This document shows positions 1,564 to 61,963 of a stretch of DNA of 64,000 nt, piece after piece. This DNA comes from an uncultured Gemmatimonadales bacterium. Its GTDB lineage: Bacteria; Gemmatimonadota; Gemmatimonadetes; Gemmatimonadales; Gemmatimonadaceae. The notes beneath the pieces were generated by a model that was not told the DNA's origin, did not search any database, and saw only the letters and a program-made list of their open reading frames with translations. The stretch is taken from contig CAWKNZ010000002.1 in assembly GCA_963851265.1 (NCBI GenBank), forward strand, positions 1,248,001 to 1,312,000, written 5' to 3'. Position 1 is the first letter of the stretch, and every line of letters starts with the position of its first letter. The position numbers and the translations under genes were made by a program.

Positions 1564-2810
1564 CCCTGCTCGACTCCACGTCCGGCGCGTCCGCGCCGGC
1601 GACGACGGACCGCTTCGGCGCGTTCGGCGGCCGCTACGTCCCCGAGACGCTCATCCCCGCGCTCGACGAACTCGAACTCGCGTTCGATGCGGCGATGCGC
1701 GACGCGGGGTACCGCGCCGAACTCGACGACCTGCTGCGCACGTACGTGGGCCGCCCGTCGCCGCTCAGCGCCGCGCCGCGCCTCTCGGCTTTGGTCGGGG
1801 CGCCCGTCTGGCTCAAGCGTGAGGACCTGAACCACACGGGCGCGCACAAGATCAACAACACGGTCGGGCAGGTGCTGCTCGCACGGCGCATGGGCAAACG
1901 GCGCATCATCGCGGAGACCGGGGCGGGGCAGCACGGCGTCGCGACCGCGACCGTGTGCGCGCGGTTCGGACTTCCGTGCGTCGTCTACATGGGCGCGGCC
2001 GACATGGAGCGGCAGGCGCTCAACGTGTGGCGCATGCGGCTGCTCGGCGCCGAGGTCGTTCCGGTCACCGCGGGGACGCGCACGCTCAAGGACGCGACGA
2101 GCGAGGCGATCCGCGACTGGGTGACCAACGTCGAGTCGAGTCACTACATCATCGGGTCGGTCGTCGGGCCGGCGCCGTACCCGCGGATCGTGCGCGAGCT
2201 GCAGTCGCCGATCGGGCGCGAGGCGCGGGCGCAGATGCTCGAGCGCGCCGGCCGGCTTCCGCACACGGTGGTGGCGTGCGTCGGCGGCGGCTCCAACGCG
2301 ATGGGAATCTTCGCCGGCTTCGTCGACGACGCCGACGTCGAGCTGGTGGGCATCGAGGCGGCGGGCGAGGGCGTCGAGACGGCGCGTCATGCCGCTTCGC
2401 TCGCGCGCGGCACGCCGGGCGTGCTGCACGGCGCGTTGAGCTACCTGTTGCAGGACGCGCGAGGGCAGGTGGTCGACGCGCACTCCATCTCGGCCGGCCT
2501 CGACTACCCGGGCGTCGGGCCCGAGCACGCGTACCTGCGCGACTCCGGGCGGGCGCGCTACGTGCCGGTGACCGACGCGGCAGCGCTCCGCGGCTTCGCC
2601 CTGCTCAGCCGCCTCGAAGGCATCATCCCCGCACTCGAAACGTCGCACGCGGTGGCGTGGGTGGCGGACCAGGCGGGCGCGTGGGCCGCCGACGCGCCGG
2701 TGCTCATCTGCGTGAGCGGCCGAGGCGACAAGGACGCCGCGCAGGTGAGCGCGTTAGGCACGCTGCCCGACGTCGGCCCGCTGCCGCCCTACCCCGAGTC
2801 CGACGCGTGA
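1560..2810 (+). CDS. trpB: Tryptophan synthase beta subunit
   Basis: [47 protein letters not shown] overlap start. Confidence 0.98.
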
Positions 2811-3664
2811 CGGCGCTCGCAGGCGCGCTCGCGAGCGGCCCGCGCGTCGGCGCGATCGCGGCACGGTTCGACCGACTGCGGGCCGAGGACCGCGCGGCAC
2901 TCGTGTGCTACGCGACCGCCGGGCACCCGGATCCGGATCGGTCCGTCGCGCTCCTTCGCGGGCTGGAGGCGGCCGGCGCCGACGTGATCGAGCTCGGCGT
3001 CCCGTTCTCCGAACCGCTCGCGGACGGTCCGGTCATCCAGCACAGCTCGAGCGTCGCACTCTCGCACGGCATCGACCTCGCCGGCGCGCTCGCGCTGCTC
3101 GAGCGTGCCGCGCTCGCGGTGCCGGTCGTGCTCTTCACGTACCTCAACCCGTTGCTCGCGGCGGGCCCCGACGTGCTCGCGCGGGCGGCGTCGGCGGGCG
3201 TGTCGGGCGTGCTCGTCACCGATCTGCCCGTCGGCGCCGACGCGGCCCGCGAGGCGTGGATCGGAGAGGGCCCGCTCGACTTCGTCCGGCTCGTCGCGCC
3301 GACGACACCGGCCGCGCGCATGGCGCTCATCGCGCGACACGGCCGCGGCTTCGTCTACCTCATCAGCCGACTCGGCGTGACGGGCGAGCAGAACGAGCTC
3401 GCGGCGTCGCTCCCGGCGACGATCGCGCGCCTGCGCGGCGTGACCGAGCTGCCGATCTGCGTGGGGTTCGGCATCGCGCGCCCCGAGCAGGCCGCCGCCG
3501 TCGCGCGCCTCGCCGACGGCGTGGTCGTGGGCAGCGCGATCGTGCGGGCGGCCGACCGGAGCGTCGACGAGGCAGTCGCGCTCACGCGGGAGCTGCGCGC
3601 CGCCATCGACGGCGCCGACCGGAGCGCGATCGGTCGCGAGGTGCCCGGCACCACATCGCGTTGA
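2807..3664 (+). CDS. trpA: Tryptophan synthase alpha subunit
   Basis: [41 protein letters not shown] overlap start. Confidence 0.97.
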
Positions 3665-3689
3665 CCCCCGCGCCGGCCGATCCTACGTT
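3661..3689 (+). promoter_or_regulatory. Sigma70-type promoter (TTGACC-17 nt-TACGTT), 6 nt before the folB start
   Basis: TTGACC 3661-3666, 17-nt spacer, TACGTT 3684-3689; the same hexamer pair and spacing occur at 62001-62029. Confidence 0.6.
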
Positions 3690-3695
3690 CCCGCC

Positions 3696-4139
3696 GTGAC
3701 CACCCCCACGCGCCAGGCCGCGCTCGACGAGCAGACAGTCTCGCTCGTGGGCATGCGCTTCCATACGCTCGTCGGCGTGCTGCCGCACGAGCAGGAGATC
3801 GCCCAGCCGCTCGAGGTCGACGTGTCGGCGGTGCGCGCGCGCACGGCGGCGGGCTACGCGGCTGGCGACGTGCTCGACTACCGCCGCCTGTACGCGGTGG
3901 TGGCCGATGTGGCCTCGCGGCGCGTCGCGTGGCTCGAGGACGCGGCCGACGCGATCGCATCGCGGCTCCTCGCCGAGGAGGCCCTCGCCCGTGTGCGCGT
4001 GGCAGTGCGCAAGCCGCACGTCGCGCTCGGTGGCCCGCTCGCCTACGCGGAAGTCTGCGTCGAGCGCGCCGCCGGCATGTCGGGTCGCACCGCGACGCGC
4101 GACCTGGCCGTCGACTCGCCCGCGGAGCCGCTCGCGTGA
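3696..4139 (+). CDS. folB: Dihydroneopterin aldolase
   Basis: GMRFHTLVGVLPHEQEIAQPLEVDV, LDY, VRKP; directly upstream of folK. Confidence 0.9.
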   Translation: MTTPTRQAALDEQTVSLVGMRFHTLVGVLPHEQEIAQPLEVDVSAVRARTAAGYAAGDVLDYRRLYAVVADVASRRVAWLEDAADAIASRLLAEEALARVRVAVRKPHVALGGPLAYAEVCVERAAGMSGRTATRDLAVDSPAEPLA

Positions 4140-4609: not shown

Positions 4610-5433
4610 CTCACGGCGCGGGCAGCGCGCCAGGTCGACGCCTCACGCCGCGCACCTTCGCCGCGGCCAAGGGCCGCCCCGAACCGCTCGTCGTCGTGGC
4701 CGCCTACGACGCACTTTTCGCGCGCCTGGCCGAGGACGGGGGGGTCGACTGCGTGCTCGTCGGCGACTCGTTAGGCAACGTCGTCGCGGGGTACGAGTCG
4801 ACGCTCCCCGTGACGCTCGACATGATGGTCTACCACGGCGCGGCGGTACGCCGCGGCGTGTCGCGCGCGCTCGTCGTCGTGGACATGCCGTTCCTGACGT
4901 ACGAGGTCACGACGGAACGCGCACTGCTCAACGCCGGGCGCGTGATGCAGGAAACCCGCTGCGACGCGGTGAAGCTGGAAGGCGGCTCGGAGCAGACCGC
5001 CGACACCGTCGCCGCGCTCGTGCGCGCGGGGATTCCGGTGATGGGCCACCTCGGGTTCACGCCGCAGCGCGTGAACACGCTCGGAGGTTTCCGCGTCCAG
5101 GGCCGTGACGCGGACGGCGCGAACCGGATCGTGGACGAGGCGAAGCGCCTCGAAGCCGCCGGTGCGTTCTCGATCGTCCTCGAGCTCGTCCCGGGTGAGG
5201 TGGCCGAGCGCGTAACGCGGGCGGTCGCGGTCCCGACGATCGGGATCGGGGCGGGCGCCGCGTGCGACGGTCAGGTGCTGGTGCTCGCCGACCTGCTCGG
5301 CCTAACGGACGGGTTCAAGCCGAAGTTCGTGAAGCGGTACGCAGACCTCGCGGGCGACGTGCGCGGCGCGGTGACGCGCTTCACGGCCGACGTGCGGGCC
5401 CGCGCGTATCCCGACGCCGACCACGCCTTCTGA
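4606..5433 (+). CDS. panB: 3-methyl-2-oxobutanoate hydroxymethyltransferase
   Basis: LVGDSLG, DMPF, VKLEGG, MGHLGFTPQ, IGIGAG, DGQVLV. Confidence 0.97.
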   Translation: MTHGAGSAPGRRLTPRTFAAAKGRPEPLVVVAAYDALFARLAEDGGVDCVLVGDSLGNVVAGYESTLPVTLDMMVYHGAAVRRGVSRALVVVDMPFLTYEVTTERALLNAGRVMQETRCDAVKLEGGSEQTADTVAALVRAGIPVMGHLGFTPQRVNTLGGFRVQGRDADGANRIVDEAKRLEAAGAFSIVLELVPGEVAERVTRAVAVPTIGIGAGAACDGQVLVLADLLGLTDGFKPKFVKRYADLAGDVRGAVTRFTADVRARAYPDADHAF

Positions 5434-6942: not shown

Positions 6943-7461
6943 ATGACCGGGATGCCGCTGCCCGTCGACGCCGGCACGCCGGAGCCGCGACGGCGTCGCG
7001 GCCGCGTGCGCGTCGCGGCGGCGGCCGTCGTGATCGCCGCTGCGTTAGGCATCGGCGGGTGGTACGGCGTCCGCGTGGTGCGGGCGCGCCGCGCGGCCGC
7101 GCTCCCGCCCGCGCCGACCGCCGGGCGCGGCGTCACGTCTGACTCGCTCGCGCGCGCGCCGAACGGCGTCCGGGTGAAGGTGCAGGTCGTGAACGCGACG
7201 CGTGTGCGCGGGCTGGCGCGCCGGGCAACTCAGGCGATCCGCGACCGCGGGTACGATGTCGTGGAGATCGGCACCACGGGGCAGCAGCGCGACACCACGC
7301 TCGTGCTCGACCGCTCGGGGCACCAGGACTGGGCGCGTCGGCTGGCCCGGGCGATGGGCGGGGCGCGCGTGGAAGCGCGCCCCGACAGCTCACACTACCT
7401 CGACCTCACGGTCCTCGTCGGCCGGTCGTGGCACCCGCCGGCCGAGCCGTTCTACCCGTAG
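6943..7461 (+). CDS. LytR C-terminal domain membrane protein
   Basis: N-terminal TM helix, then VQVVNATRVRGLARRAT...GYDVVEIG...DLTVLVG. Confidence 0.8.
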   Translation: MTGMPLPVDAGTPEPRRRRGRVRVAAAAVVIAAALGIGGWYGVRVVRARRAAALPPAPTAGRGVTSDSLARAPNGVRVKVQVVNATRVRGLARRATQAIRDRGYDVVEIGTTGQQRDTTLVLDRSGHQDWARRLARAMGGARVEARPDSSHYLDLTVLVGRSWHPPAEPFYP

Positions 7462-11572: not shown

Positions 11573-13837
11573 GTGGGACTCTGGGGGTTGTCGGGCGTCG
11601 GTCACGGCACCGCCGGACCGGTCGAAACGGCCGGCGCGGTGCGCGAGCACGCGCTCCGCGCGGGTGTGGCCGTCTTGCTCGCGGTCATTCTGTACCTGCT
11701 GTTCCCGAGCGCGCCCGTCGCAGTCGCGCCGCTGTACGACGTCGGGACCGTCGCGCCCGAGGCGGTCGTAGCGCCGTTCGCCTTCGACGTGCCGAAGTCC
11801 GCTGCGGCGCTCGCGGGCGAGCGCGCGGACGCCGCGAAGGCCGTGCCGCCCGTGTTCGTCCGCCGTCCCGAAGGACTCGACACCGCGCTCGTACGCCTCG
11901 CCGCGCTCGATTCGGCGCTCGCCCGGCCCGCCGAGGCCGACGCGCGTCTCGCCGCGGACGGTTTCCGGCTCACCGCCGGCGAGCTCGCGATCGTCAGAGA
12001 TCCGCGCCGGAAAGCGGCGGCGGTCGACACGGCGCGCCAGCTGCTCGAGCAGTGGTTGCCGCGCGGCGTGGCACAGACGAGCGCGCTCCGCGACGTCCGC
12101 GGCGCGATCGCGGTCAGCGCGCCGGGCGGCGCCGGCCACGCGGTTGCGACCGCCGACGCCGACAGCGTCGCGACGTTCGCGACGTTCCTCACGCGCGCGG
12201 TACGAGCCGGCGCGGCCGACCCGGCGTCGACCCTGCGCACGAAGCTGCTGAGCGCCAGCTTCGCCCCCACGCTCGTTCCGGACCGGACGGAAACCGACCG
12301 CCGCCGCACGATCGCCGCGAGCGGCGTGGCGGCTACGCGCGGTGCGGTTCGCGCGGGCGAGCGCATCGTCGGCGCGCGCGAGGTCGTCGGCCGCGACGAG
12401 TACGAACGTCTTCGAGCGCTCCGCGCCCTCGAGGAGCAACGCGGGAGGCGCACGGCGGGCGCCCAGGTCGCGCGCGTGTTCGGTGCGGTGTTACACAACC
12501 TCGTCCTGCTCGCGATCGTGGGCGTCACGCTCTTCCTGTTCCGGCCCGCGCTCTACGCGTCGTTCCGGACCGTGTCGCTCTTCGGGATCGGCTTCGCGCT
12601 CGTCGCGTTGGCCGCCGCCGCGGTCGCGCGCTGGGGCGACGGGCGACCGGAACTCGTCCCGGTCGCGTTCGCCGCGATGCTCTTCAGCACGCTCTTCGAC
12701 GCGCGGATCAGCACGGTCGCGGTCGTACTGCTCTCCATTCTGTTAGGCGGCCAGGGTCCGTTCCGCGGCACGAACGCGACGTTCATCTTCCTCGTCGCGG
12801 GCACGGCCGCGGCGGTGAGCGTGCGCACCGCGCGGCGTCGGAGTCAGGCGTTCGTGCCCGTGCTCGTCGTCGCCGCCGCGTACGCCGTCGCGGCGGTCAC
12901 GCTCGGGCTCGCGCTCGGGTCGTCGTGGGTCGCCGTCGCGATCACGGCTGGAGGCGGCGCCGCAGCCGCGCTCGGGTCGATGGTGGTCGGGATGGCCGTG
13001 CTCCCGCTCGCGGAGGACTTCACCGGGGTGGACACGTACCTGCGCCTCCTCGAGTGGTCGGACCTCAACCGGCCGCTGCTGCGCCGGCTCGCGGTCGAAG
13101 CGCCCGGCACCTTCGCGCATACGATCGCCATGGCCAACCTCGTCGAGTCCGCGTGCAACGCGATCGGCGCCAACGGCCTGCTCGGGCGCGTCGGGACGTA
13201 CTACCACGACATCGGGAAGCTCGAACGCCCGCAGTACTTCGTCGAGAACCAGGGACGCGGGCGGAACCCGCACGACAAGCTGAAACCGTCGGCGAGCGCG
13301 GCGATCATCCGGAGCCACGTGCGCGAGGGCCTCGCCCTCGCCGACGAGTACAAGCTGCCGAACGCCCTGCGATCGTTCATCACGCAGCACCACGGGACCA
13401 ACCGCATCGTCTACTTCTACGAGCGCGCCCGGGAGCGGGGCGACGCGAACCCGACGACCGCGGAGTACGCGTACGGCGGTCCGCTGCCGAACACGGCGGA
13501 GACGGCGGTCTGCATGCTCGCGGACGGCGTCGAGGCGGCCGCGCGCGCACTCCCCGAGCCGACGGCCGACCGTATCCGCGACCTGGTCGAGCGGATCGTG
13601 CAGCAGCGACTCGAGCAGGGGCAGTTGCGAGACGCGCCGCTCACGATGCGGCAGCTCGAAACGGTGAAGGAGGAGTTCGCGCGGGTCCTCCTCGGCATGT
13701 ACCACGGCCGGATCGACTACCCGCCGGCGCCCGCACCCAACGGAACTCCGACCGGGAGCGGCGCGGGTGACCCGCTCGCGCCGGCGTCGCCCTCCGCGCC
13801 CGAGCCGGTCGCGGTCGCCGCGGGCGACCGCGCGTGA
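11573..13837 (+). CDS. 7TM-HD membrane phosphohydrolase (PgpH/YqfF-like); start uncertain
   Basis: Extracellular domain, multi-TM block, APGTFAH, YYHDIGK, FVENQ, HHGT, MLADGVEAA; phoH-X-ybeY context. Confidence 0.9.
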   Translation: MGLWGLSGVGHGTAGPVETAGAVREHALRAGVAVLLAVILYLLFPSAPVAVAPLYDVGTVAPEAVVAPFAFDVPKSAAALAGERADAAKAVPPVFVRRPEGLDTALVRLAALDSALARPAEADARLAADGFRLTAGELAIVRDPRRKAAAVDTARQLLEQWLPRGVAQTSALRDVRGAIAVSAPGGAGHAVATADADSVATFATFLTRAVRAGAADPASTLRTKLLSASFAPTLVPDRTETDRRRTIAASGVAATRGAVRAGERIVGAREVVGRDEYERLRALRALEEQRGRRTAGAQVARVFGAVLHNLVLLAIVGVTLFLFRPALYASFRTVSLFGIGFALVALAAAAVARWGDGRPELVPVAFAAMLFSTLFDARISTVAVVLLSILLGGQGPFRGTNATFIFLVAGTAAAVSVRTARRRSQAFVPVLVVAAAYAVAAVTLGLALGSSWVAVAITAGGGAAAALGSMVVGMAVLPLAEDFTGVDTYLRLLEWSDLNRPLLRRLAVEAPGTFAHTIAMANLVESACNAIGANGLLGRVGTYYHDIGKLERPQYFVENQGRGRNPHDKLKPSASAAIIRSHVREGLALADEYKLPNALRSFITQHHGTNRIVYFYERARERGDANPTTAEYAYGGPLPNTAETAVCMLADGVEAAARALPEPTADRIRDLVERIVQQRLEQGQLRDAPLTMRQLETVKEEFARVLLGMYHGRIDYPPAPAPNGTPTGSGAGDPLAPASPSAPEPVAVAAGDRA

Positions 13838-16554: not shown

Positions 16555-17715
16555 ATGACTTCGCCCGTCGCGACGCGCACCGACCCGATCGCCCGCGTGC
16601 TGGCCGACCTCGACGCGGGCCGCACCGCGGCCGTCGCCCGTGCGGTCAGCATCGTCGAGAACCACCGGCCCGGGTTCGACCGCCTGCTCGCCGCGCTTCA
16701 CCCGCGGCTCGGACGCGCGGAGCGCGTCGGCATCACGGGTCCGCCCGGGGCGGGGAAGAGCACCCTCACCACCGCGCTCGCGCGCGCGCTGCGCGCCGCG
16801 GGCAAGCGCGTCGGCATCGTGGCCGTCGACCCGACGTCGCCGTTCACCGGCGGCGCACTCCTCGGCGACCGGGTGCGGATGGAGGCGGTCGCGCTCGACC
16901 CGGGCGTGTACATCCGCTCGCTCGCGACGCGCGGATCGTTAGGCGGCCTGTCGAGCGCGGCGCGCGAGGTCTGCGACGTGCTCGACGGCGCGGGGTTCGA
17001 CGTGATCCTGCTCGAAACCGTCGGCGTCGGGCAGAGCGAGCTCGACGTCTCACACGCGGCCGATACCACGCTCGTCGTGCTGGTCCCAGAGAGCGGCGAC
17101 TCGATCCAGACGCTGAAGGCGGGCGTGATGGAGATCGCCGACGTGTTCTGCGTGAACAAGGCGGACCGTCCTGGCGCCGACCGCCTCCGCAACGACATCG
17201 AGCTGATGCTCGGCCTCCGCCGCGGCGGCACGGGCGAGGCACCCGGGATCATGGGCGGCCATCACGGCATCGATCTCGCCGCCCTCGCCGAGGACCCGGC
17301 GCACCGCGACCACGTCCGCGATCTGCTCAATCCGGCGCGCGCCGCGCGGCGGGCGGCCGGGGGCGACGGCGACGGCCCGTGGACGCCGCCGGTACTGCGC
17401 AGCGTGGCGTCGAAGGGTGAAGGGGTCGACGAGGTTCTGGACGCTCTGGCGCGGCACCGGCGCTATCTTGAAGCCAGCGGCCAACTTGCAGAACGGCGGC
17501 GGGCGCGGTTCCGCGAGCGGGTCGTCGAGATCACGGAAGAGAAGTTGCGTCGTCGGTTGTGGACCGACGCCGACACGACGGCCTGGCTCGACGGCCAGTT
17601 GCCGTCGGTCCAGGCCGGCGACGCGACACCTTTCGCGGTCGCCGACGCGCTCATCGCGCGGAGCGGCACGCTGCTGGGCGGCGCGGCAGGCCGGGCGGCG
17701 CGCGGCGACGTCTGA
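16555..17715 (+). CDS. meaB: B12-mutase-associated GTPase chaperone (MeaB/ArgK family)
   Basis: [46 protein letters not shown]. Confidence 0.93.
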
Positions 17716-17743: not shown

Positions 17744-19438
17744 ATGACCATGGCGACAGCACAGGAACTCGAAACCGCCGTCCGCGACCGCGACGACGAG
17801 ATCGCGCGGCTTCGGGCCGAGGTCGACGCGTGGCGCGCGCGCTACGCGAAGGGCGTCGTGCGCGACGTCGCGTACACCAACTCCGCCGACGAGGTCGAGC
17901 CGCTGTACACCGCCCTCGACGCGGGCGAGCGCGTCGACGCGGAGGTGCCCGGCGCGTACCCGTTCACGCGCGGCATCCACCCGACCGGCTACCGCGGCAA
18001 GCTGTGGACGATGCGGCAGTTCGCCGGCTTCTCGACGGCGCGCGAGACGAACGAGCGCTTCAAGTTCCTGCTCGCACAGGGGCAGACCGGGCTCTCGGTC
18101 GCGTTCGACTTCCCGACGTTGATGGGCTACGACTCCGACCACCCGCGGTCGGAGGGCGAGGTGGGCAAGTGTGGCGTCGCGATCTCGTCGCTCGCCGACA
18201 TGGAGACGCTGATGGCCGGCATCCCGTTAGGCCGAGTCTCGACGTCGATGACGATCAACGGTCCGGCGATCATCCTGTTCTGCTTCTACGCCGCCGCGGC
18301 CGAGAAGCAGGGCGTGCCCCTCGCGGCCATCCAGGGGACGGTCCAGAACGACATCCTCAAGGAGTACATGGCGCAGCACGCGTGGTGCTTTCCGATCGAG
18401 CCCGCGCTCCGCCTCGTCGTCGACATGTTCGAGTGGTGCTCGGCGAACACGCCGAAGTGGAACACGATCTCCATCTCGGGCTACCACATCCGCGAGGCCG
18501 GGAGCACGGCCGCGCAGGAGCTCGCCTTCACGCTCGCGGACGGCCTGACGTACGTGGAGCGCGGCATCGCGCGCGGCCTGAAGGTCGACGATTTCGCGCC
18601 GCGCCTGTCGTTCTTCTGGGACGTCCACAACGACCTGTTCGAGGAGGTCGCGAAGCTGCGCGCGGCGCGCCGGATCTGGGCGCGGCGGATGCGCGACGTG
18701 TACGGCGCGAAGGATCCGCGCTCGTGGATGCTGCGCTTCCACTCGCAGACGGCCGGCGTGACGCTCACCGCACAGCAGCCCGTCAACAACGTCGTGCGCG
18801 TCGCGTACCAGGGGCTCGCCGCCGTCCTCGGCGGCACGCAGTCGCTGCACACGAACTCGATGGACGAGACGCTCGCGCTTCCGACCGAAGAGGCGGTGCA
18901 GGTCGCGCTGCGGACGCAGCAAATCCTCGCGTACGAGACCGGCGTCCCGAACGTGATGGACCCGCTTGGCGGGTCGTATTACGTCGAAGCGCTTACCGAC
19001 CGCCTCGAAGCGGACGCCGAGCGGCTGTTCGAGGAGATCGAAGCGCAGGGCGGGGTCGTCGCGGGGCTCGAGGCCGGGTGGTTCCAGCGGCGGATCGCCG
19101 AGAGCGCGGCGCGTCAGCAGTGGGAGTTCGAGCAGCGGCGCAAACTCATCGTCGGCGTGAACGAATTCGTGACCGACGAGCCCGAACTCGGGATTCCGCT
19201 GTTGAGGATCGGCGAGGACGCCGAGCGCGAGCAGCGCGAGAGCATGGCTCGCATGCGGGCGTCGCGGGACAACGCGCTCGTCGCGGCGCGTCTCGACGCG
19301 CTGCGCGAGGCGGCGCGCGGGACGACGAACGTGGTGCCGCTCATTCTGGACTGCGCGCGGGCGTACTGCACGCTGTATGAGATCCGCGCGGCGCTTGAGG
19401 ACGTGTTCGGCGCTTACCGCGAGCCGGTGTTCTTCTAA
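17744..19438 (+). CDS. Acyl-CoA mutase large (substrate-binding) subunit, methylmalonyl-CoA mutase family; isobutyryl-CoA mutase-type residues
   Basis: [51 protein letters not shown]; no B12-binding domain. Confidence 0.93.
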
Positions 19439-20264: not shown

Positions 20265-20702
20265 ATGACGCGCCCCATCCGAGTACTCGTCGCCAAGCCC
20301 GGTCTCGACGGCCACGACCGCGGCGCCAAGGTTGTCGCGGCCGCGCTACGCGACGCGGGCATGGAGGTCATCTACACGGGCCTGCACCAGACGCCCGAGA
20401 TGATCGCCACGGCGGCCGTGCAGGAGGACGTCGACGTGGTCGGTCTGTCGATCCTCAGCGGCGCGCACATGACGCTGTTCCCGCGCGTGCTCGACCTCCT
20501 GCGCGCCGAGGGGCGCGACGACGTGCTGCTCACCGGCGGCGGGATCATGCCCAAGGAGGACGTCGAGCGGCTCCGTGCGTTAGGCGTCGGCGAGCTGTTC
20601 GGCCCGGGGACCCCGACGAGCGCGCTCGTCGACTACATCAAGCGCTGGTTCTCGGAGCGCGAGGCGGCGGAGTCCCGCGAGGCGAGCGAGGCGGGGGCGT
20701 GA
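20265..20702 (+). CDS. Cobalamin-binding small subunit of the acyl-CoA mutase
   Basis: [15 protein letters not shown] (DxHxxG), [20 protein letters not shown]. Confidence 0.93.
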
Positions 20703-42766: not shown

Positions 42767-42767
42767 G

Positions 42768-50644: not shown

Positions 50645-52016
50645 TCCGTACAAGGATCGCCGGCCGCCGTACTCGCTCGACGCCGAGGTGGCGGTCCTCG
50701 GCGCGATGCTCCTCGACCAGGACGCCATCCTGCGCGCCGGCGAGCACGTCGACGACACGATGTTCTACCAGGAAGGGCACCGCCGCGTCTTCCGCGCCAT
50801 GCTTTCCCTGTCGGAGCGGGGCGAGGTCGCGGACCCGCTCACGCTCGCCGAGGAGTTAGGCAGGCGCGGCGAGCTCGAGGCGAGCGGCGGCAAGGAGTAC
50901 CTCGCGTTCCTCATCGACGCGGTCCCGACGGCGGCGAACGTCGAGTACCACGCGAAGATCATTCGCGAGAAGGCACTCTTGCGCCGCCTGATCGAGGTGT
51001 CGACGAGCGTCGTGACGGAGGCGTTCGACGGCCGCCGGCTCGCCGCGGAGCTGCTCGACGAGGCGGAAGCCAAGATCTTCCAGATCGGCGAGGCGCAGAA
51101 CGCGAGCAACTTCACGCGCATCAAGGAGCTGCTCTGGCCGGCGATGGAGCGCATCGAGGCGCAGAGCCGGTCCGGCAACGCCGTCACGGGCGTGCCCACC
51201 GGCTACAAGGACCTCGATGAGATGACGAGCGGGTTCCAGCCGTCGGACCTCATCATCGTCGCGGCCCGCCCGTCGATGGGGAAGACGGCGTTCACGCTGA
51301 ACATCGCGCAGCATGTCGCCATCACAGAGCAGAAGTCGGTCGCGTTCTTCTCGCTCGAGATGAGCAAGGACTCGCTCGTCCAACGCATGCTGACGAGCGA
51401 GGCACGCATCGACGCCCAGACGTTGCGGCGCGGCAAGCTGCGCGACGACGACTTCCCGCGCCTCGCGCGCGCCGCGGGCATCCTGTCGCATGCCCCCGTC
51501 TTCATCGACGACACCCCGGGCATTACGGTCCTCGAGATGCGCTCCAAGGCGCGCCGCCTCAAGAGCGATCACGGGCTCGACCTCGTGATCGTCGATTATC
51601 TGCAGCTCATGGCCGGGCCGAGCGCGGAGAACCGGCAGCAGGAGGTCTCGCAGATCTCGCGCGGCCTCAAGGCGCTCGCGAAGGAACTGCACGTCCCCGT
51701 CGTCGCGCTGTCGCAGTTGTCGCGCGCGGTCGACCAGCGCGCCGGGGCGGAGAAGGGGCGCCCGGTACTGTCGGACCTCCGCGAGTCGGGCGCGATCGAG
51801 CAGGACGCCGACCTCATCATGTTCCTCTACCGCGAGGAGGTCTACGCGGAGCGCGAGAACGGCCAGCTCAAGGACCCGAGCGTGGAGGGAAAGGCCGAGG
51901 TGATCGTCGGGAAGCAGCGCAACGGGCCGATCGGCAACGTGCCGCTCTTCTTCCACAAGCAGTACACGCGGTTCGAGTCGGTGTCGCGCCGCGAGTACGA
52001 GGGCGGACCGGCCTAA
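50595..52016 (+). CDS. dnaB: Replicative DNA helicase
   Basis: AARPSMGKT, FSLEM, VDYLQLM, LSQLSR, DLRESGAIEQDAD, KQRNGPIG; no intein. Confidence 0.98.
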   Translation: MSSLPVDFSIAPPPKVDPYKDRRPPYSLDAEVAVLGAMLLDQDAILRAGEHVDDTMFYQEGHRRVFRAMLSLSERGEVADPLTLAEELGRRGELEASGGKEYLAFLIDAVPTAANVEYHAKIIREKALLRRLIEVSTSVVTEAFDGRRLAAELLDEAEAKIFQIGEAQNASNFTRIKELLWPAMERIEAQSRSGNAVTGVPTGYKDLDEMTSGFQPSDLIIVAARPSMGKTAFTLNIAQHVAITEQKSVAFFSLEMSKDSLVQRMLTSEARIDAQTLRRGKLRDDDFPRLARAAGILSHAPVFIDDTPGITVLEMRSKARRLKSDHGLDLVIVDYLQLMAGPSAENRQQEVSQISRGLKALAKELHVPVVALSQLSRAVDQRAGAEKGRPVLSDLRESGAIEQDADLIMFLYREEVYAERENGQLKDPSVEGKAEVIVGKQRNGPIGNVPLFFHKQYTRFESVSRREYEGGPA

Positions 52017-52019
52017 CGC

Positions 52020-55557: not shown

Positions 55558-56454
55558 ATGCCCGACCGCGTGCCCGCCGATCGCGTCGTCCCGCCCGCCC
55601 GCCGCCCGACGCGGCTCGTGCTCCTCGGGCACCCCGTGGCGCACTCGCTGTCGCCGACGTTCCAGAACGCGGCGCTCGACGCCGCGTCGATCCCGCTCCG
55701 CTACGAGATCCTCGACGTGCCGCCGCGAGACCTCGCTCGCACGGTCGATCGGCTGCGCGCCTCCGGCGCCGCGGGCAACGCCACGGTGCCGCACAAGGCG
55801 GGCGCGCTCGCCGTCTGCGACCGCGTCACGGACGTCGCGGCCACGCTCGGCGCGGTCAACACCTTCTGGTGCGCCGATGACGGCGCGCTCGTCGGCGACA
55901 ATACCGACGCGGCCGGTGCCGTCGCCGCGCTCTCGACCGTCCTGCGGCGCGCCGGCGAACGCCCGCCCGCACGCGTCGCGGTGCTCGGCGCGGGCGGCGC
56001 GGCCGCGGCCCTCATCGCGGCGGTCGGAGTCGTGCTTCCGCGCGCGGCGGTCGGCGTGTGGGCGCGCGGCGCCGAGCGCGCCGCCGCGTTGGTCGCGCGG
56101 TTCGACGAGCGCGCGACGGTCGCGCCGACGCTCGACGCCGCGTTAGGCGACGCACAGGTCGTCGTGAACGCGACCCCCCTCGGACTCGCGGCCGGCGATG
56201 TCTTCCCGTGCCCGATCGAAGCGCTGGCACCGGGCGCGATCGTGCTGGACCTCGTGTACGGCGCCGCCGAGACTGCGTGGGTCCGTGCGGCGCGCGCCGC
56301 CGGGTACGACGCCAGCGATGGGCTGGTGATGCTGGTCGAGCAGGGGGCTGCCGCGTTCACGCGCTGGTTCGGGCGCTCGCCCGACCGCGCGCGCATGTGG
56401 GCCGCCGTACAGCTGCGAACGGGCCGCACGCCCCCGAACCCGCCCGCCGCGTGA
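55558..56454 (+). CDS. aroE: Shikimate dehydrogenase
   Basis: GHPVAHSLSP, NATVPHK, GAVNT, GDNTD, GAGGAA, NATPLG, DLVY, MLVEQG. Confidence 0.95.
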   Translation: MPDRVPADRVVPPARRPTRLVLLGHPVAHSLSPTFQNAALDAASIPLRYEILDVPPRDLARTVDRLRASGAAGNATVPHKAGALAVCDRVTDVAATLGAVNTFWCADDGALVGDNTDAAGAVAALSTVLRRAGERPPARVAVLGAGGAAAALIAAVGVVLPRAAVGVWARGAERAAALVARFDERATVAPTLDAALGDAQVVVNATPLGLAAGDVFPCPIEALAPGAIVLDLVYGAAETAWVRAARAAGYDASDGLVMLVEQGAAAFTRWFGRSPDRARMWAAVQLRTGRTPPNPPAA

Positions 56455-58323: not shown

Positions 58324-59523
58324 ATGAAAAAGAAGACCGTCCGCGACCTGACTGACGCCGACCTGCGCGGACGGCGCGCGCTCGTGCGCGTCGACTTCAA
58401 CGTGCCGCTCGACTCGGCCGGGCACGTGACCGACGACACGCGGATCCGCGCCGCGATCCCGACGATCGATTACCTCCGGGACCGCGGCGCGAAGGTCGTC
58501 CTGCTCTCGCATCTCGGCCGGCCAAAGGCGGCGCCCGAGGCGAAGTACTCGCTGCAGCCCGTGGCGAATCGGCTCGCCGAGCTCATGCCCGCCGCTCGCG
58601 TGGACTTCTGCGAGACCACCGATACGGACGACGCCGTGCAGGCGTCGGAGCGGGTGCCCGACGGCGCGGTGCTGCTGCTCGAGAACACGCGGTTCCTGCC
58701 CGGCGAGGAATCGAATGACGAGCGCCTCGCGCGCGAGCTGGCCAAGCTCGGCGACGTGTACGTCAATGACGCGTTCGGGGCGGCCCACCGCGCCCACGCC
58801 TCGACCGAGGGTGTCGCGCATCTGGTGCACCCGGCGGTGGCCGGCCTGCTGATGGAGAAGGAGCTCGCATACCTCGGCGCGGCACTCGCCAACCCCGAGC
58901 GTCCCTTCGTCGCGATCCTGGGCGGCGCGAAGATCTCCGGCAAGCTCGACGTCATCGCGCAGCTGCTACCCAAGGTCGACAGGCTGTTGATCGGCGGTGC
59001 GATGGCGAACACGTTCTTCCGCGCGATGGGCCTCGAGACGGGCGGCTCGCTCGTCGAGCCCGATCGGGTCGACCTCGCACGCGAGCTCTCACGCACCGCT
59101 GGGGAACGGCTCGAACTCCCCGTCGATGCGATGGTCGCCCCCACGCTCGCGGCCACCGCCGAGGCGCACGTGGTCGCGCGCGACGCCATTCCCCCGGGCG
59201 AGGCGATGTTCGACGTCGGCCCGGCGACGGTGCGCGAGTTCGGCGAGGCCGTCCGCGGCGCTCGCACGGTGCTCTGGAACGGCCCGATGGGCGTCTTCGA
59301 GACGCCCCCGTTCGACGCCGGTACGTTAGGCATTGCGCACGCGCTCGCCGACGCGACGCGCGCCGGCGCGACCACGATCGTCGGCGGCGGAGACTCCGCC
59401 GCCGCGATCGTGCAGGCGGGACTCGACTCGGCCGTCACGCACGTATCCACCGGCGGCGGCGCCTCGCTGGAGTTCCTCGAAGGCAAGACGCTGCCCGGCG
59501 TCGCCGCGCTCGACGACGCGTGA
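58324..59523 (+). CDS. pgk: Phosphoglycerate kinase
   Basis: [40 protein letters not shown]. Confidence 0.98.
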
Positions 59524-60279: not shown

Positions 60280-60401
60280 ACCGACTCGCGATGGGGCGGT
60301 TCGGCTCGGCGCGGGGCACGCGGTTGGTCGCGCGTCCCGCGTCGCGTAGCTTTCGGAGGCGCGCCGCCCGGCGTGCCCCCTAATACCGACTCGGGACCCC
60401 G

Positions 60402-60836
60402 ATGTATACGCTGCTGTTCACGTTGCTGGTTCTCGTTTGCCTCGTGCTGATCGCTGCCGTCCTGCTGCAGGCGGGGAGGGGCAACGGCCTCGCCTCGAGC
60501 TTCGGGGGCGCCAGCTCCACCGCGGAGTCGGTCCTCGGGACCCGGCAGGCGGGAAACCTGCTCACACGTACGACGTGGTGGGCCGGCGGCCTGTTCGTCG
60601 GTCTCGCGTTTCTGCTCAGCGTGATGGGCGCACGTCAGCGCGCGCCACGTTCGGTGCTCGACAATTCGTTCGCGCCCGCGCGTTCGAGCGCGCCCGCGTC
60701 CACGGGCCCGGCGGGTTCCCCTGCCGGCGGGCCCACCGCCGCGCCGGCCGTTCCGCTGACGCCGGCTGCCCCGGCCGCGCCAGCCGGGTCGCCGGCGGGC
60801 GCGACCGCGCCGAGCGGCGCCGCGCCGCGCCGCTGA
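60402..60836 (+). CDS. secG: Preprotein translocase subunit SecG
   Basis: VLLQAGRGNGLASSFGG, LTRTT; two TM segments; follows tpiA. Confidence 0.92.
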   Translation: MYTLLFTLLVLVCLVLIAAVLLQAGRGNGLASSFGGASSTAESVLGTRQAGNLLTRTTWWAGGLFVGLAFLLSVMGARQRAPRSVLDNSFAPARSSAPASTGPAGSPAGGPTAAPAVPLTPAAPAAPAGSPAGATAPSGAAPRR

Positions 60837-60847
60837 GCGGGCCCGAC

Positions 60848-61963
60848 GTGGCCGAAGTGGCGCGCGAGGGGGTTCTGCTCCTCGAAGACGGGACGCAGTT
60901 TCGCGGCGAGATCGTCGGCCCGGACGGGCCGACCGTCGCCGAGGTGGTGTTCACGACCAACATGACGGGGTATCAGGAGGTGTTCTCCGACCCGTCCTAC
61001 CGCGGGCAGATCGTCGTGATGACCGCGCCGATGATCGGGAACTACGGCGTGAACGCCGACGATCCCGAGTCGGCCGAGCCGCAAGTCTCGGGTGTCGTCG
61101 TGCGCGAACTCTCGCCCACGTACTCCAACTGGCGCGCCCGCGGCTCGTTAGCGGACTGGCTGGCCGGCGCGAACGTGCCCGTGTTGACCGGGGTCGATAC
61201 GCGGCGCCTCACACGGCACCTGCGCAGCGTCGGCGTGATGCGCGGGGTGATCGCGCTCGGGCGCGACGCGAACCCGGAAGCGCGCGCGGCGCTCGAGGCG
61301 TGTCCCTCGATGGAGGGCCTCGACCTCGCGAGCCGCGTCAGCACGCGCGCGCCGTATGTGTGGGGCAACCCGCGCGCCGACCGCCACATCGTGGCGTACG
61401 ACTACGGCATCAAGCGCAACATCCTGCGTCTATTCGACGACCACGGCTGCCGCGTGACGGTCGTGCCGTCCGACACGCCTCCCGAAGCGGTGCTCGAGCG
61501 TGATCCCGACGGTGTGTTCCTCGCGAACGGGCCCGGTGACCCCGCGGCGGTCGGATACGCGCCGGCGGCCATCCGGACGATCGCCGAACGCGGCGTTCCG
61601 GTGTTCGGCATCTGCCTCGGACACCAGCTGCTCGGCCTAACGTTCGGCGGCAGCACGACCAAGATGCCTTACGGTCACCGCGGCGGGAATCACCCGGTCA
61701 AGGACCTCGCGACGGGCAGCGTGCTCATCACCTCGCAGAACCACGGTTTCGCGGTTACCGGCGACGAGCACGGTGTCGCGGGCGCGACGGCGTTACGCGT
61801 CACCCACGTCAATCTGAACGACGGCAGCGTCGAAGGGCTCGCGCATCGTGAGCTGCCCGTGTTCGGCGTCCAGTACCACCCCGAGGCCGCGCCCGGCCCG
61901 CACGATGGACGTCCGGTGTTCGACGATTTTCTGGCGGCGGTGCGCGCCCGACGTAGCGGCTGA
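60848..61963 (+). CDS. carA: Carbamoyl-phosphate synthase small subunit
   Basis: LLLEDG, TNMTGYQE, DPSY, NGPGDP, GICLGHQL, SQNHGF, QYHPEAAPGP. Confidence 0.97.
   Translation: MAEVAREGVLLLEDGTQFRGEIVGPDGPTVAEVVFTTNMTGYQEVFSDPSYRGQIVVMTAPMIGNYGVNADDPESAEPQVSGVVVRELSPTYSNWRARGSLADWLAGANVPVLTGVDTRRLTRHLRSVGVMRGVIALGRDANPEARAALEACPSMEGLDLASRVSTRAPYVWGNPRADRHIVAYDYGIKRNILRLFDDHGCRVTVVPSDTPPEAVLERDPDGVFLANGPGDPAAVGYAPAAIRTIAERGVPVFGICLGHQLLGLTFGGSTTKMPYGHRGGNHPVKDLATGSVLITSQNHGFAVTGDEHGVAGATALRVTHVNLNDGSVEGLAHRELPVFGVQYHPEAAPGPHDGRPVFDDFLAAVRARRSG

What the first reader, a model, noticed from the sequence alone, without database searches (positions are those of the whole stretch)
2752..61642. Over-represented dispersed octamer CGTTAGGC embedded in genes via rare codons: candidate chromosome-wide DNA signal
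Seen: by manual scan at least 20 exact copies (13 CGTTAGGC at 2752, 4769, 7043, 16937, 18225, 20578, 21391, 22892, 26441, 35513, 42895, 56141, 59324; 7 GCCTAACG at 5300, 35999, 37183, 42322, 44389, 52011, 61635), plus near copies (12741 TGTTAGGC, 50854 AGTTAGGC, 52904 CTTAGGC, 30263, 30431). A rough zero-order expectation at about 72% GC is about 2 copies. Fourteen copies read NCG-TTA-GGC on the coding strand and account for most TTA codons I saw. Two read GGC-CTA-ACG, two read CCT-AAC, one forms the dnaB stop and one is intergenic. Use of both strands, several frames and disfavoured Leu codons in housekeeping genes (trpB, panB, pgk, icd, carA) argues for a DNA-level rather than protein-level cause. 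Known analogues: DNA uptake sequences (Neisseria, Pasteurellaceae), Chi, KOPS, cyanobacterial HIP1; this word matches none that I know. Inference: an uncharacterised uptake, recombination, nucleoid-protein or methylation-linked site of this lineage.
Basis: partly seen in the sequence, partly recalled or inferred. Interest (0 to 1): 0.85.

Follow-up and report, generated by a model that had tools for sequence, protein, structure and literature searches.

The report
Genome-wide DNA word (C)GTTAGGC, Gemmatimonadaceae
A soil bacterium of the Gemmatimonadaceae keeps the short DNA word (C)GTTAGGC written about 1,800 times through its genes, stop codons and spacers against its own codon habits, most like the "self tags" that some bacteria use when they take up DNA, but what reads the word is still unknown.

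Summary
All 20 listed copies are there (shuffles give 1.1). The genome (4.6 Mb, 73% GC, Gemmatimonadaceae MAG) has 1,396 CGTTAGGC and 1,762 GTTAGGC. It is the most over-represented octamer, at 24x an order-3 Markov null.

The cause acts on DNA, not on protein or mRNA. TTA makes up 17.5% of Leu codons in the G_GGC context and 0.2% elsewhere. Sense sites (xxG-TTA-GGC) fill 9.5% of their synonymous opportunities and antisense sites (CCT-AAC) 13.7%.

The word is rich only in scattered genera of one order. Sites are conserved within the genus but mostly differ between genera.

New here: copies exclude each other within about 300 bp in either orientation, and this recurs in two other genera. Occupancy also rises with native codon usage.

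Best reading (about 0.4): an uptake-sequence- or HIP1-like self tag that accumulates by molecular drive. Replication polarity is weak. RecC, Vsr, C5 and N4/N6 methylases were not found in this genome. ComEC, PilM and an Eco57I-like protein occur in rich and poor genomes alike, and IntI does not track richness, so no reader was identified.

The word equals the integron attC core site used in this order. That link is unexplained. Earlier runs of this scan reported the same word from other windows of this genome and from other genomes.

The parts
2752..2759 (+). CGTTAGGC in a PALP (trpB-like) gene at 1560-2810, read xCG-TTA-GGC
   Evidence: found only in G000 among 4 congeners, which have CTC/CTT-GGx here
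4769..4776 (+). CGTTAGGC in panB (4606-5433), read xCG-TTA-GGC
   Evidence: present in all 4 genomes of the genus
5300..5307 (-). GCCTAACG in panB, read GGC-CTA-ACG on the coding strand
   Evidence: G000 only
7043..7050 (+). CGTTAGGC in a LytR_C-domain ORF (6943-7461)
   Evidence: G000 only
12741..12748 (+). TGTTAGGC (core GTTAGGC with T at -1) in a 7TM-HD receptor gene (11588-13837)
   Evidence: core also in G004 and G002
16937..16944 (+). CGTTAGGC in meaB (16555-17715)
   Evidence: in all 4 congeners
18225..18232 (+). CGTTAGGC in the methylmalonyl-CoA mutase gene (17744-19438)
   Evidence: in all 4 congeners
20578..20585 (+). CGTTAGGC in a B12-binding domain gene (20265-20702)
   Evidence: core also in G004 and G002
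21391..21398 (+). CGTTAGGC in a carboxyl transferase gene (20985-22349)
   Evidence: also in G001 and G002, and at the orthologous site of G012, another genus
22892..22899 (+). CGTTAGGC in atuA (22414-23766)
   Evidence: in all 4 congeners and in G012
26441..26448 (+). CGTTAGGC in a peptidase U32 gene (25486-28032)
   Evidence: also in G001 and G002
35513..35520 (+). intergenic CGTTAGGC, 15 bp after the rpmA stop (gene 35184-35498)
35999..36006 (-). CGTTAGGC on the coding (-) strand of an amidohydrolase gene (35612-36913)
   Evidence: in all 4 congeners
37183..37190 (-). CGTTAGGC on the coding (-) strand of an amidohydrolase gene (36913-38487)
   Evidence: in all 4 congeners
42322..42329 (-). 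GCCTAACG in icd (41534-42766), read xxG-CCT-AAC on the coding strand
   Evidence: congeners have CCG-AAC or CCG-GAC
42895..42902 (+). CGTTAGGC in pepA (42768-44237)
   Evidence: core also in G004
44389..44396 (-). GCCTAACG in a Plug-domain (TonB-receptor-like) gene (44276-46312), read CCT-AAC
50854..50861 (+). AGTTAGGC (core with A at -1) in dnaB
   Evidence: core also in G002
52011..52018 (-). GCCTAACG supplying the dnaB stop codon (GCC-TAA)
   Evidence: genome-wide, 106 of 359 TAA stops lie in GCCTAAC
56141..56148 (+). CGTTAGGC in aroE (55558-56454)
   Evidence: also in G001
59324..59331 (+). CGTTAGGC in pgk (58324-59523)
   Evidence: also in G002
61635..61642 (-). GCCTAACG in carA (60848-61963), read GGC-CTA-ACG
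   Evidence: also in G004 and G002

Best explanation
Y-GTTAGGC-R (core GTTAGGC, mostly CGTTAGGC) is a double-stranded DNA word that an unidentified protein of certain Gemmatimonadales lineages reads. A directional process keeps writing it into the genome wherever the encoded protein tolerates it.

The most likely process is the one proposed for DUS, USS and, more recently, HIP1. Cells take up or recombine fragments that carry the word in preference to others. Alleles that gain the word therefore spread by homologous recombination (molecular drive), and the word ends up marking native DNA.

Shown here: the DNA-level cause, symmetry between strands, genome-wide spread, retention at sites over genus-level divergence, independent placement in different genera, and mutual exclusion within about 300 bp.

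For: Abundance. 1,762 GTTAGGC and 1,396 CGTTAGGC; it is the top octamer under an order-3 Markov null (58 expected).

The cause is not protein or mRNA.
- Given the protein sequence and codon usage, xxG-TTA-GGC occurs 953 times against 32 expected.
- The antisense reading xxG-CCT-AAC occurs 177 times against 12 expected.
- Occupancy of synonymous opportunities is similar on the two transcription strands: 953 of 10,014 against 177 of 1,291.
- The word also sits in spacers (379 of 1,762 in the 16.5% of the genome scored non-coding or low) and in stop codons (106 of 359 TAA, 73 of 644 TAG).
- TTA is 953 of 5,441 Leu codons in the G_GGC context and 0.16-0.2% elsewhere. tRNA-Leu(UAA) is present.

The motif is compact. 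In 379 non-coding copies only position -1 (C 75%, T 13%) and position +7 (G 55%, A 24%) add information. The same flanks appear in G012, G292 and G299.

Maintenance within the genus. Of 22 window sites, the congeners (about 80% DNA identity) keep 9, 10 and 14. Six sites are in all four genomes and 6 are in G000 only. Where the word is absent, the sequence is mostly CTC- or CTG-GGC.

Independent accumulation between genera. Only 2 of 41 mapped sites from other genera are shared with G000.

Saturating, per-segment behaviour.
- Pairs of coding sites within 100, 100-200 and 200-300 bp number 3, 7 and 12, against 35, 31 and 30 expected. The ratio is about 1 beyond 300 bp.
- 0 of 1,000 randomisations were as low.
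- The depletion holds for same-orientation, opposite-orientation and sense-antisense pairs.
- It recurs in G012 (under 300 bp: 19% against 34.5% for a Poisson process; CV 0.72) and more weakly in G292.
- For USS and DUS, a second copy within 100 bp adds no uptake, and even spacing is expected from neutral accumulation (passages of PMC7811141; PMC1939737).

Native DNA carries more copies. Occupancy is 4.9% in the lowest quartile of codon adaptation and 11-12.6% above the median.

The machinery exists. ComEC, DprA and a pilin-PilMNO-PilQ cluster are present.

The HIP1 precedent. HIP1 is hyper-abundant and conserved, and is now linked to transformation (abstracts of PMC5861425 and bioRxiv 10.1101/2024.09.10.611283; abstract and sections 9 and 13 of PMC13756078).
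Against: - No experiment shows competence or biased uptake in any Gemmatimonadota. One literature search found none in print.
- No receptor was found. The ComP_DUS family is not in G000.
- ComEC (31 of 31) and PilM (31 of 31) are equally present in motif-poor relatives. The on/off pattern therefore does not follow the uptake machinery, unlike the correlation reported for HIP1 (PMC13756078).
- One-off variants are barely enriched. TTG in the same context is 7.7% against 4.5%, and CTA is not enriched. H. influenzae, by contrast, has many imperfect USS; I recall this and did not check it.
- The word rarely forms inverted-pair terminators: 20 inverted pairs within 200 bp, several of them attC sites.
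- The exclusion range of about 300 bp requires very short effective fragments.
- Weak leading-strand excess. Summing rows by hand for C2 950-1600 kb: leading-oriented sense sites 108 of 1,131, lagging-oriented 13 of 216.
- The exact identity with the integron core site is not predicted by this model.
Confidence: 0.4

Rival explanations
1. The word is the binding site of an abundant, unidentified chromosomal DNA-binding protein (nucleoid organisation, or a self-marker for a defence or repair system). Selection on the host maintains the sites. One site per few hundred bp is enough, because the protein spreads or occupies a domain.
For: - Strand symmetry.
- A sharply defined 7-9 bp word with almost no tolerance of one-off variants.
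- Site conservation within the genus.
- An orientation-independent exclusion zone of about 300 bp and spacing more regular than Poisson in G012 (CV 0.72).
- HIP1 has been argued to serve nucleoid structure (abstract of PMC5861425).
Against: - Selection at about 1,800 to over 6,000 separate sites, each of minute effect, is hard to sustain.
- Sites are almost entirely different between genera (2 of 41 shared).
- Close relatives do without the word, including one member of a motif-rich genus (G288 against G235 and G292).
- No candidate protein was found.
- The 45-kb motif-free stretch around parAB-gidA in G000 is not conserved in G001, G004, G299 or G292. This argues against a fixed chromosomal architecture.
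Confidence: 0.17
2. The word is tied to integrons or to a tyrosine recombinase. A protein of the IntI/Xer type, or one derived from it, reads GTTAGGC. The dispersed copies arise from or serve that system, for example as secondary recombination sites, or as a tag that also favours capture of cassette DNA.
For: - GTTAGGC is an instance of the integron core site GTTRRRY, and its complement of RYYYAAC (passages of PMC3053210).
- Cassette arrays in motif-poor relatives use exactly GCCTAAC...GTTAGGC (L081, L082, L084).
- G000's own attC-like hairpins end in GCCTAACG...CGTTAGGC.
- The dispersed word's preference for C then T at -1 matches the two attC arms seen.
- An exact match to one named 7-mer is unlikely by chance (1 in 8,192 per word, before allowing for the number of known motifs).
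Against: - IntI over its curated cut-off occurs in 5 of 10 motif-rich and 13 of 21 motif-poor genomes, so it does not track richness.
- The dispersed copies are single. They lack an inverse-core partner and a hairpin; only about 9 attC-like pairs exist among 1,762 copies.
- Known IntI chemistry inserts or excises DNA and does not make in-frame synonymous substitutions (established knowledge).
- Sites that invite cassette insertion into housekeeping genes should be selected against.
Confidence: 0.12
3. The word is linked to methylation in the original HIP1 sense. It would be the target of an orphan or Type IIG/III methyltransferase, and repair or selection tied to the modification enriches it.
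For: - An asymmetric 7-mer ending in AAC is the style of site that MmeI-family enzymes recognise (recalled, not tested).
- G000 encodes an intact 1,141-aa Eco57I/MmeI-type protein.
- HIP1 contains methylase sites, and its effect on transformation depends on methylation (abstracts).
Against: - The Eco57I-like gene is a single-copy, vertically inherited gene in 30 of 31 relatives, rich and poor. Not one alignment column separates 7 rich from 12 poor genomes.
- No PF00145 or PF01555 methylase in G000.
- The two Type I hsdM genes are broken into several frames.
- Vsr occurs in 0 of 10 rich genomes.
- Restriction-modification targets are usually avoided, not enriched (established knowledge).
Confidence: 0.1
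4. The word is a polar chromosome signal of the Chi or KOPS/AIMS type, read by a recombination nuclease or a translocase in one orientation relative to replication.
For: - In C2 800-1350 kb the word is mostly forward, and in 1350-1800 kb mostly reverse.
- After normalising for opportunities, leading-oriented sense sites are still somewhat commoner: 108 of 1,131 against 13 of 216 (summed by hand).
Against: - The raw skew follows gene orientation. 85-100% of coding DNA is on one strand in those regions.
- Antisense-class sites show no polarity: 2 of 29 against 10 of 142.
- Genome totals are 708 forward and 688 reverse.
- RecC was not found in G000 or in 30 of 31 genomes.
- The on/off pattern among genera is not expected for core recombination signals.
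- AddAB and AdnAB were not searched.
Confidence: 0.04
5. The word is a codon-level or purely mutational effect: a translational preference for TTA before GGC, or a context-specific mutation bias.
For: Most copies (983 of 1,762) are in one reading frame, as Leu-Gly.
Against: - The antisense frames (CCT-AAC, CTA-AC), stop codons and spacers carry the same word at equal or higher occupancy.
- Gaining the word from CTC-GGC needs two changes towards A/T in a 73% GC genome.
- Site-wise mutation bias does not predict mutual exclusion within 300 bp.
Confidence: 0.02

Closest known systems
DNA uptake sequences: DUS of Neisseriaceae (read by the minor pilin ComP) and USS of Pasteurellaceae
   Same: - A short non-palindromic word, hundreds to thousands of copies on both strands, with little or no replication polarity.
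- Mostly inside genes, in the frames that the proteins tolerate.
- Shared by related species and missing from others.
- A second nearby copy is redundant, and spacing is fairly even (passages of PMC7811141 and PMC1939737).
   Different: - A different word in a different phylum.
- Only 7-9 informative bases, with no flanking AT tracts.
- Almost no enrichment of one-off variants.
- Few inverted-pair terminators.
- No ComP-family protein in this genome.
- Uptake bias and competence are untested.
- Richness is patchy among genera that all have ComEC and PilM.
HIP1 (GCGATCGC) of cyanobacteria
   Same: - A hyper-abundant octamer written into genes, conserved at sites between related genomes, and absent from some lineages of the same phylum.
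- Function long unknown, now proposed to aid transformation (abstracts of PMC5861425 and PMC4390886; abstract and sections 9 and 13 of PMC13756078).
   Different: - HIP1 is a palindrome containing known methylase sites. This word is asymmetric, and no cognate methylase was found.
- HIP1 abundance tracks type IV pilus and competence genes. Here those genes are present regardless of richness.
- The 10-90 kb periodicity reported for HIP1 was not tested here.
Integron core site GTTRRRY (R' box of attC; attI)
   Same: The letters are identical. GTTAGGC, with GCCTAAC as its complement, is the R box of the attC sites in this order and in this genome.
   Different: - The dispersed copies are single, without a partner box or hairpin.
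- They lie at synonymous positions of housekeeping genes.
- They do not follow the presence of IntI.
Chi and KOPS/AIMS
   Same: Over-represented chromosomal oligomers, 8 bases long in E. coli (recalled).
   Different: Those are strongly co-oriented with replication. This word is not, once gene strand is controlled for, and RecC was not found.

Membership tests
DNA uptake sequences (DUS/USS kind) | Short word hyper-abundant genome-wide relative to composition-aware nulls | tested here: met
   1,396 observed against 58 expected (order-3 Markov). 953 against 32 given protein sequence and codon usage.
DNA uptake sequences (DUS/USS kind) | Both orientations, with no strong bias relative to replication or transcription | tested here: met
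   708 forward and 688 reverse. Sense occupancy 9.5%, antisense 13.7%. Only weak leading-strand excess in C2 950-1600 kb. Replichores were inferred from gene strand and GC skew, not mapped.
DNA uptake sequences (DUS/USS kind) | Competent cells preferentially take up DNA that carries the word | not testable with these tools
   Needs an uptake or transformation competition assay. One search found no report of competence in the phylum.
DNA uptake sequences (DUS/USS kind) | Transformation machinery encoded | tested here: met
   ComEC, DprA, and a pilin-PilM-PilN-PilO-PilQ cluster. ComEA reached only below-cut-off hits, one of which is Tex. The same genes are in motif-poor relatives.
DNA uptake sequences (DUS/USS kind) | A dedicated receptor (ComP in Neisseria) | tested here: not met
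   The PF16732 ComP_DUS family has no match in G000. It is over the cut-off in 1 of 31 genomes, a motif-poor one. One PilW-like pilin does not track richness. The receptor of USS is itself unknown (recalled).
DNA uptake sequences (DUS/USS kind) | A close second copy is redundant; spacing is relatively even | tested here: met
   Pairs under 300 bp: 22 observed against about 96 expected. 0 of 1,000 randomisations were as low. Recurs in G012 and G292, not in the small G299 sample.
DNA uptake sequences (DUS/USS kind) | Frequent inverted pairs acting as terminators (Neisseria, some Haemophilus) | tested here: not met
   20 inverted pairs within 200 bp among 1,762 copies, several of them attC-like.
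HIP1-type highly iterated palindromes | Palindromic word | tested here: not met
   GTTAGGC and GCCTAAC are not self-complementary.
HIP1-type highly iterated palindromes | Cognate orphan methyltransferases | tested here: not met
   No PF00145 or PF01555 in G000. hsdM genes are fragmented. The Eco57I-like protein does not discriminate rich from poor genomes. Other methylase families were not searched.
HIP1-type highly iterated palindromes | Sites conserved between related genomes beyond neutral expectation | tested here: met
   9, 10 and 14 of 22 sites are kept in congeners at about 80% identity, against a background occupancy of about 10%.
Chi (RecBCD/AddAB) | Co-orientation with replication, and a cognate RecC or AddB | tested here: not met
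   Weak polarity. RecC was found in 1 of 31 genomes, not in G000. AddB was not searched.
KOPS/AIMS | Strong strand skew that switches at dif | tested here: not met
   The skew in C2 follows gene strand. Antisense-class sites show none.
Integron attC/attI recombination site | Core site GTTRRRY | tested here: met
   GTTAGGC fits the consensus and is the R' box of local attC sites.
Integron attC/attI recombination site | Inverse core RYYYAAC 50-140 bp upstream, with an imperfect hairpin | tested here: not met
   Only 12 GCCTAAC...GTTAGGC pairs lie within 200 bp. About 9 of them are spaced like attC sites, and 5 of those share an attC-like consensus. The other roughly 1,740 copies are single.
Integron attC/attI recombination site | Depends on an integron integrase | tested here: not met
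   TIGR02249 is over its cut-off in 5 of 10 rich and 13 of 21 poor genomes.

The most novel reading that the evidence does not exclude
The word is a transformation or self-recognition tag whose specificity was taken from, or is shared with, the integron recombination site. On this reading, lineages that read GTTAGGC preferentially acquire DNA carrying it. That includes their own genes and also integron cassettes, each of which ends in two copies. DNA uptake specificity and cassette capture would then be coupled, possibly through a reader derived from a tyrosine-recombinase DNA-binding domain. This would be the first uptake-type signal outside Proteobacteria and Cyanobacteria, and the first tied to integrons.
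Probability: 0.12. Interest if true: 0.92.

Novelty: new variant of a known kind. Interest (0 to 1): 0.8.

Why it matters
Genome-wide self tags are known from only a few groups (Neisseriaceae, Pasteurellaceae and perhaps cyanobacteria), and their origin and readers remain debated.

This case offers several things:
- **Independence.** It is a very clean example in an abundant but barely cultured soil phylum.
- **Natural contrasts.** Relatives switch it on and off, even within one genus (G235 and G292 against G288).
- **A measurable length scale.** The exclusion zone of about 300 bp constrains the possible mechanisms.
- **An unexplained identity.** The word is the same as the integron core site.

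If it marks DNA for uptake, it would show that natural transformation with self-preference operates in soil Gemmatimonadota. It would also give a handle for making them genetically tractable.

Tried and rejected
Candidate readers or drivers that were tested and did not explain the rich/poor pattern:
- IntI.
- Vsr: 3 of 31 genomes, none of them rich.
- ComEC: 31 of 31.
- PilM: 31 of 31.
- RecC: 1 of 31.
- ComP_DUS.
- C5 and N4/N6 methylases: none in G000.
- The Eco57I/MmeI-like 1,141-aa protein. Orthologues were fetched from 20 genomes and 19 were aligned (G007 was left out because its gene is split). No column separates rich from poor, and identity follows phylogeny.
- A PilW-like minor pilin: absent from two rich congeners and present in poor genomes.
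- Of the two below-cut-off ComEA hits, the one at C2:858 kb is Tex. The other, at C7:759.9 kb, was not followed up.

An origin-linked motif desert was considered. G000 has a 45-kb gap over gidA-parA-parB-mnmE, but G001, G004, G299 and G292 have copies close to parB, so the idea was dropped.

My strict attC scan found nothing because its scoring was too harsh. Folding the candidate sequences replaced it.

Sequencing runs are held only as contigs with small shares of the stretch, so I laid none. I draw no conclusion about modification or polymorphism.

Identity to congeners is higher in 2-kb windows that carry the word (82.3% for n=24 against 79.1% for n=39). This is confounded by gene conservation and by non-independent windows, so I treat it as a hint only.

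A whole-proteome comparison of rich and poor genomes could not be run within the fetch limits.

Full report
**Observation**

- The 20 exact copies of CGTTAGGC are at the stated coordinates, 13 forward and 7 reverse. 100 dinucleotide-preserving shuffles gave a mean of 1.1 and a maximum of 4.
- The window is G000:C2:1248001-1312000, in a 4.60-Mb, 12-contig, 73% GC genome.
- dnaB relatives place the genome in the Gemmatimonadaceae.
- Genome-wide there are 1,396 copies of the octamer on all contigs, at 0.27-0.41 per kb. Under an order-3 Markov model it is the most over-represented octamer (58 expected), and the next-ranked words overlap it.
- The core is GTTAGGC, with 1,762 copies. The preceding base is C in 1,396, T in 243, G in 69 and A in 54.
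- In 379 copies outside confidently coding DNA, only -1 (C 75%, T 13%) and +7 (G 55%, A 24%) add information.

**The cause acts on DNA**

I labelled reading frames with a codon-usage model trained on 1,560 long ORFs; 83.5% of bases scored as coding.

The 1,762 copies divide as follows:

| Reading | Copies |
|---|---|
| xxG-TTA-GGC | 983 |
| xxG-CCT-AAC (word on the antisense strand) | 192 |
| xGC-CTA-ACx | 73 |
| GTT-AGG-C | 39 |
| In stop-codon frames | 96 |
| Non-coding or low-scoring DNA | 379 |

Counting every place where the protein would allow the word gives these occupancies:

| Class | Occupied / opportunities | Expected from codon usage |
|---|---|---|
| X-Leu-Gly (sense) | 953 / 10,014 (9.5%) | 32 |
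| X-Pro-Asn (antisense) | 177 / 1,291 (13.7%) | 12 |
| xGC-CTA-ACx | 58 / 1,731 | 7 |
| GTT-AGG-Cxx | 24 / 3,050 | 0.5 |

- The excess of sense copies therefore reflects how common Leu-Gly is, not a strand preference.
- TTA is 17.5% of Leu codons between xxG and GGC, and 0.16-0.2% elsewhere.
- 983 of 1,189 TTA codons lie in the word. tRNA-Leu(UAA) is present.
- At gene ends, 106 of 359 TAA stops and 73 of 644 TAG stops are supplied by the word.
- In the window the host genes are ordinary housekeeping genes.

**Polarity**

- Orientation switches along C2, but so does gene strand.
- I took C2 950-1350 kb as + leading and 1350-1600 kb as - leading. This is inferred from gene strand and the sign of GC skew.
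- Summing the rows by hand gives:

| Site class | Leading-oriented | Lagging-oriented |
|---|---|---|
| Sense | 108 / 1,131 | 13 / 216 |
| Antisense | 2 / 29 | 10 / 142 |

- There is at most a weak leading-strand excess, unlike Chi or KOPS.
- RecC was found in 1 of 31 genomes and not in G000.

**Distribution among relatives**

I call a genome "rich" when the word outnumbers its reversed control word.

- In 31 relatives, 10 genomes are rich. These are all 5 of the genus (727-2,415 copies), plus G012 (6,360), G008, G017, G018 and G030. Most others are depleted.
- In a sample of 301 genomes of the phylum, 14 are rich: 11 of 71 in the family, 3 of 125 in a second family of the order, and 0 of 105 elsewhere.
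- One genus holds two very rich genomes (G235 and G292, about 4,000 copies each) and one poor one (G288, 66 copies).
- The unpublished genomes G011, G078, G117 and G198 are among the motif-poor rows of these tallies.

**Turnover**

- The three congeners aligned are syntenic and about 80% identical.
- Of the 22 core sites in the window, G001, G004 and G002 keep 9, 10 and 14. Six sites are in all four genomes and 6 are in G000 only.
- Where the word is missing, the sequence is mostly CTC- or CTG-GGC. A gain therefore needs one or two changes towards A/T.
- Between genera, 89 sites in six loci were examined, 41 mapped to the window, and 2 are shared.
- The word is thus retained for long periods within a lineage but is placed independently in different lineages, with the same flanking preferences.

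- I drew the same numbers of occupied sites at random from the real opportunities. Observed nearest-neighbour distances below 100, 300 and 600 bp are 0.27%, 2.0% and 9.2%, against 3.1%, 8.2% and 15.2%. 0 of 1,000 draws were as low.
- Counting all pairs:

| Distance | Observed | Expected |
|---|---|---|
| 0-100 bp | 3 | 35 |
| 100-200 bp | 7 | 31 |
| 200-300 bp | 12 | 30 |

- Beyond 300 bp the ratio is 0.9-1.0, with a slight excess at 600-1000 bp.
- The depletion holds for same-orientation pairs (15 against 73), opposite-orientation pairs (7 against 23) and sense-antisense pairs (6 against 23).
- With all 1,762 copies and a Poisson null the effect is weaker: under 300 bp, 4.5% against 10.9%.
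- It recurs in G012 (156 kb, 215 copies; under 300 bp 19% against 34.5%; CV 0.72) and in G292 (115 kb, 151 copies; under 100 bp 5.6% against 13.5%). It does not appear in the small G299 sample (80 kb, 65 copies).
- A site-by-site mutational bias does not predict this. A benefit that saturates per DNA segment does.
- For USS and DUS, two copies within 100 bp do not raise uptake, and even spacing is described as an expected result of neutral accumulation (passages of PMC7811141). Karlin's even-spacing observation is cited in PMC1939737.

**Native against atypical DNA**

- Sense-site occupancy is 77 of 1,558 in the lowest quartile of codon adaptation. It is 297 of 2,627, 215 of 1,712 and 139 of 1,122 in the upper bins.
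- The longest motif-free stretch, C1:182,876-227,962, carries gidA, parA, parB and mnmE. The gap is not conserved in four other rich genomes.
- That block is about 5 points less similar to congeners than its flanks. This is compatible with an import from a motif-poor lineage, but it is not shown.

**The integron coincidence**

- Dense same-strand runs of the word in motif-poor relatives are cassette arrays with attC sites of the form GCCTAAC-N70-110-GTTAGGC.
- GTTRRRY and RYYYAAC are the integron core and inverse core sites (passages of PMC3053210).
- G000 has an intI gene at C6:3005-6044 and attC-like hairpins ending in GCCTAACG...CGTTAGGC.
- IntI does not track richness: 5 of 10 rich against 13 of 21 poor genomes.
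- The dispersed copies are single.
- I cannot explain the identity.

**The search for a reader**

- Not found in G000: Vsr, RecC, ComP_DUS, and C5 or N4/N6 methylases.
- Present in rich and poor genomes alike: ComEC, PilM and the Eco57I/MmeI-like protein. Not one alignment column of that protein separates 7 rich from 12 poor genomes.
- A PilW-like pilin does not track richness.
- G000 has the usual transformation toolkit.
- This differs from HIP1, whose abundance is reported to track pilus and competence genes (PMC13756078, abstract and sections 9 and 13).

**Literature**

- A whole-word search for the word and its complement found 2 papers. Going by their listings, one is on integron recombination sites and the other an unrelated bladder-cancer paper; I did not open either.
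- Searches combining Gemmatimonadota with uptake sequences or with attC found nothing on this phenomenon.
- I therefore believe it is not in print in the library searched.
- Earlier runs of this scan reported the same word from six other windows of this genome and from two other genomes, with the same leading reading. Those are unchecked notes, not independent evidence.

**Verdict**

This is a real, strong, lineage-restricted DNA-level signal. It works most like DUS, USS and HIP1. It is not a member of the DUS-ComP system, of HIP1, of Chi/KOPS, or of functional attC sites. The uptake-tag mechanism is my best estimate at about 0.4.

Noticed in passing
L081 (G021:C95:1-20000), L082 (G019:C3:1-9000), L084 (G021:C80:1-7000), L083 (G029:C1:1-11000): Chromosomal integron cassette arrays in motif-poor relatives. 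Cassettes of about 500-600 bp are separated by 80-125 bp attC sites of the form GCCTAAC...GTTAGGC. The local GC (61-63%) may be below that of the host genomes, which I did not measure.
   Followed up: partly
G000:C6:1-6100 (L110); G000:C10:188,900-203,800 (L111): G000 has an integron integrase that matches in two pieces about 2 kb apart (C6:5244-6044 and C6:3005-3166), with an attC-like hairpin at C6:1592. Four more attC-like hairpins lie on C10 without an adjacent intI. They end in GCCTAACG...CGTTAGGC.
   Followed up: partly
G000:C1:182,876-227,962 (L157-L159): This 45-kb stretch has no copy of the word. It carries gidA, parA, parB and mnmE, has normal GC and codon usage, and is about 5 points less identical to congeners than its flanks. 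The gap is absent from G001, G004, G299 and G292.
   Followed up: partly
G000:C1:2,107-17,073: dnaA (C1:12048-12530) lies in a 15-kb stretch with no copies, lower GC (0.678) and a low coding score. It is about 180 kb from parAB on the same contig. The position of oriC is not settled.
   Followed up: no
G000:C7:582,089-585,511 (L107): An intact 1,141-aa Eco57I/MmeI-type methylase-like protein is a single-copy, vertically inherited gene in 30 of 31 genomes of the order. That is unusual for a restriction-modification enzyme.
   Followed up: partly
G000:C7:767,800-773,000 (L108); G000:C9:1-8,400 (L109): Type I hsdM genes are split over several frames at two contig ends. One lies beside hsdS and a GmrSD/Schlafen-type gene, the other beside a Tn3-family transposase.
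   Followed up: no
G000:C2 about 1,350,000 (40-100 kb right of the window): Gene orientation flips from about 90% + to about 90% -, and GC skew changes sign near 1.35 Mb. A Xer-like recombinase gene lies at C2:1346667-1347503. This is probably the replication terminus.
   Followed up: no
G235, G292 and G288: One genus holds two genomes with about 4,000 copies each and one with 66. This is the sharpest natural contrast for finding the responsible gene.
   Followed up: no
window 34796-34801 (-) and 52905-52910 (+): The only two TTAGGC in the window that are not preceded by G. 22 of the 24 TTAGGC carry the full 7-mer.
   Followed up: no
G000:C5:24,000-37,000 (L180): A type IV pilus cluster: a sigma-54 regulator, a pilin, three ORFs with no Pfam family (140, 324 and 376 aa), PilM, PilN, PilO, a 190-aa ORF with no Pfam family, and PilQ with an AMIN domain. 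The unnamed ORFs are untested candidates for a DNA receptor.
   Followed up: no
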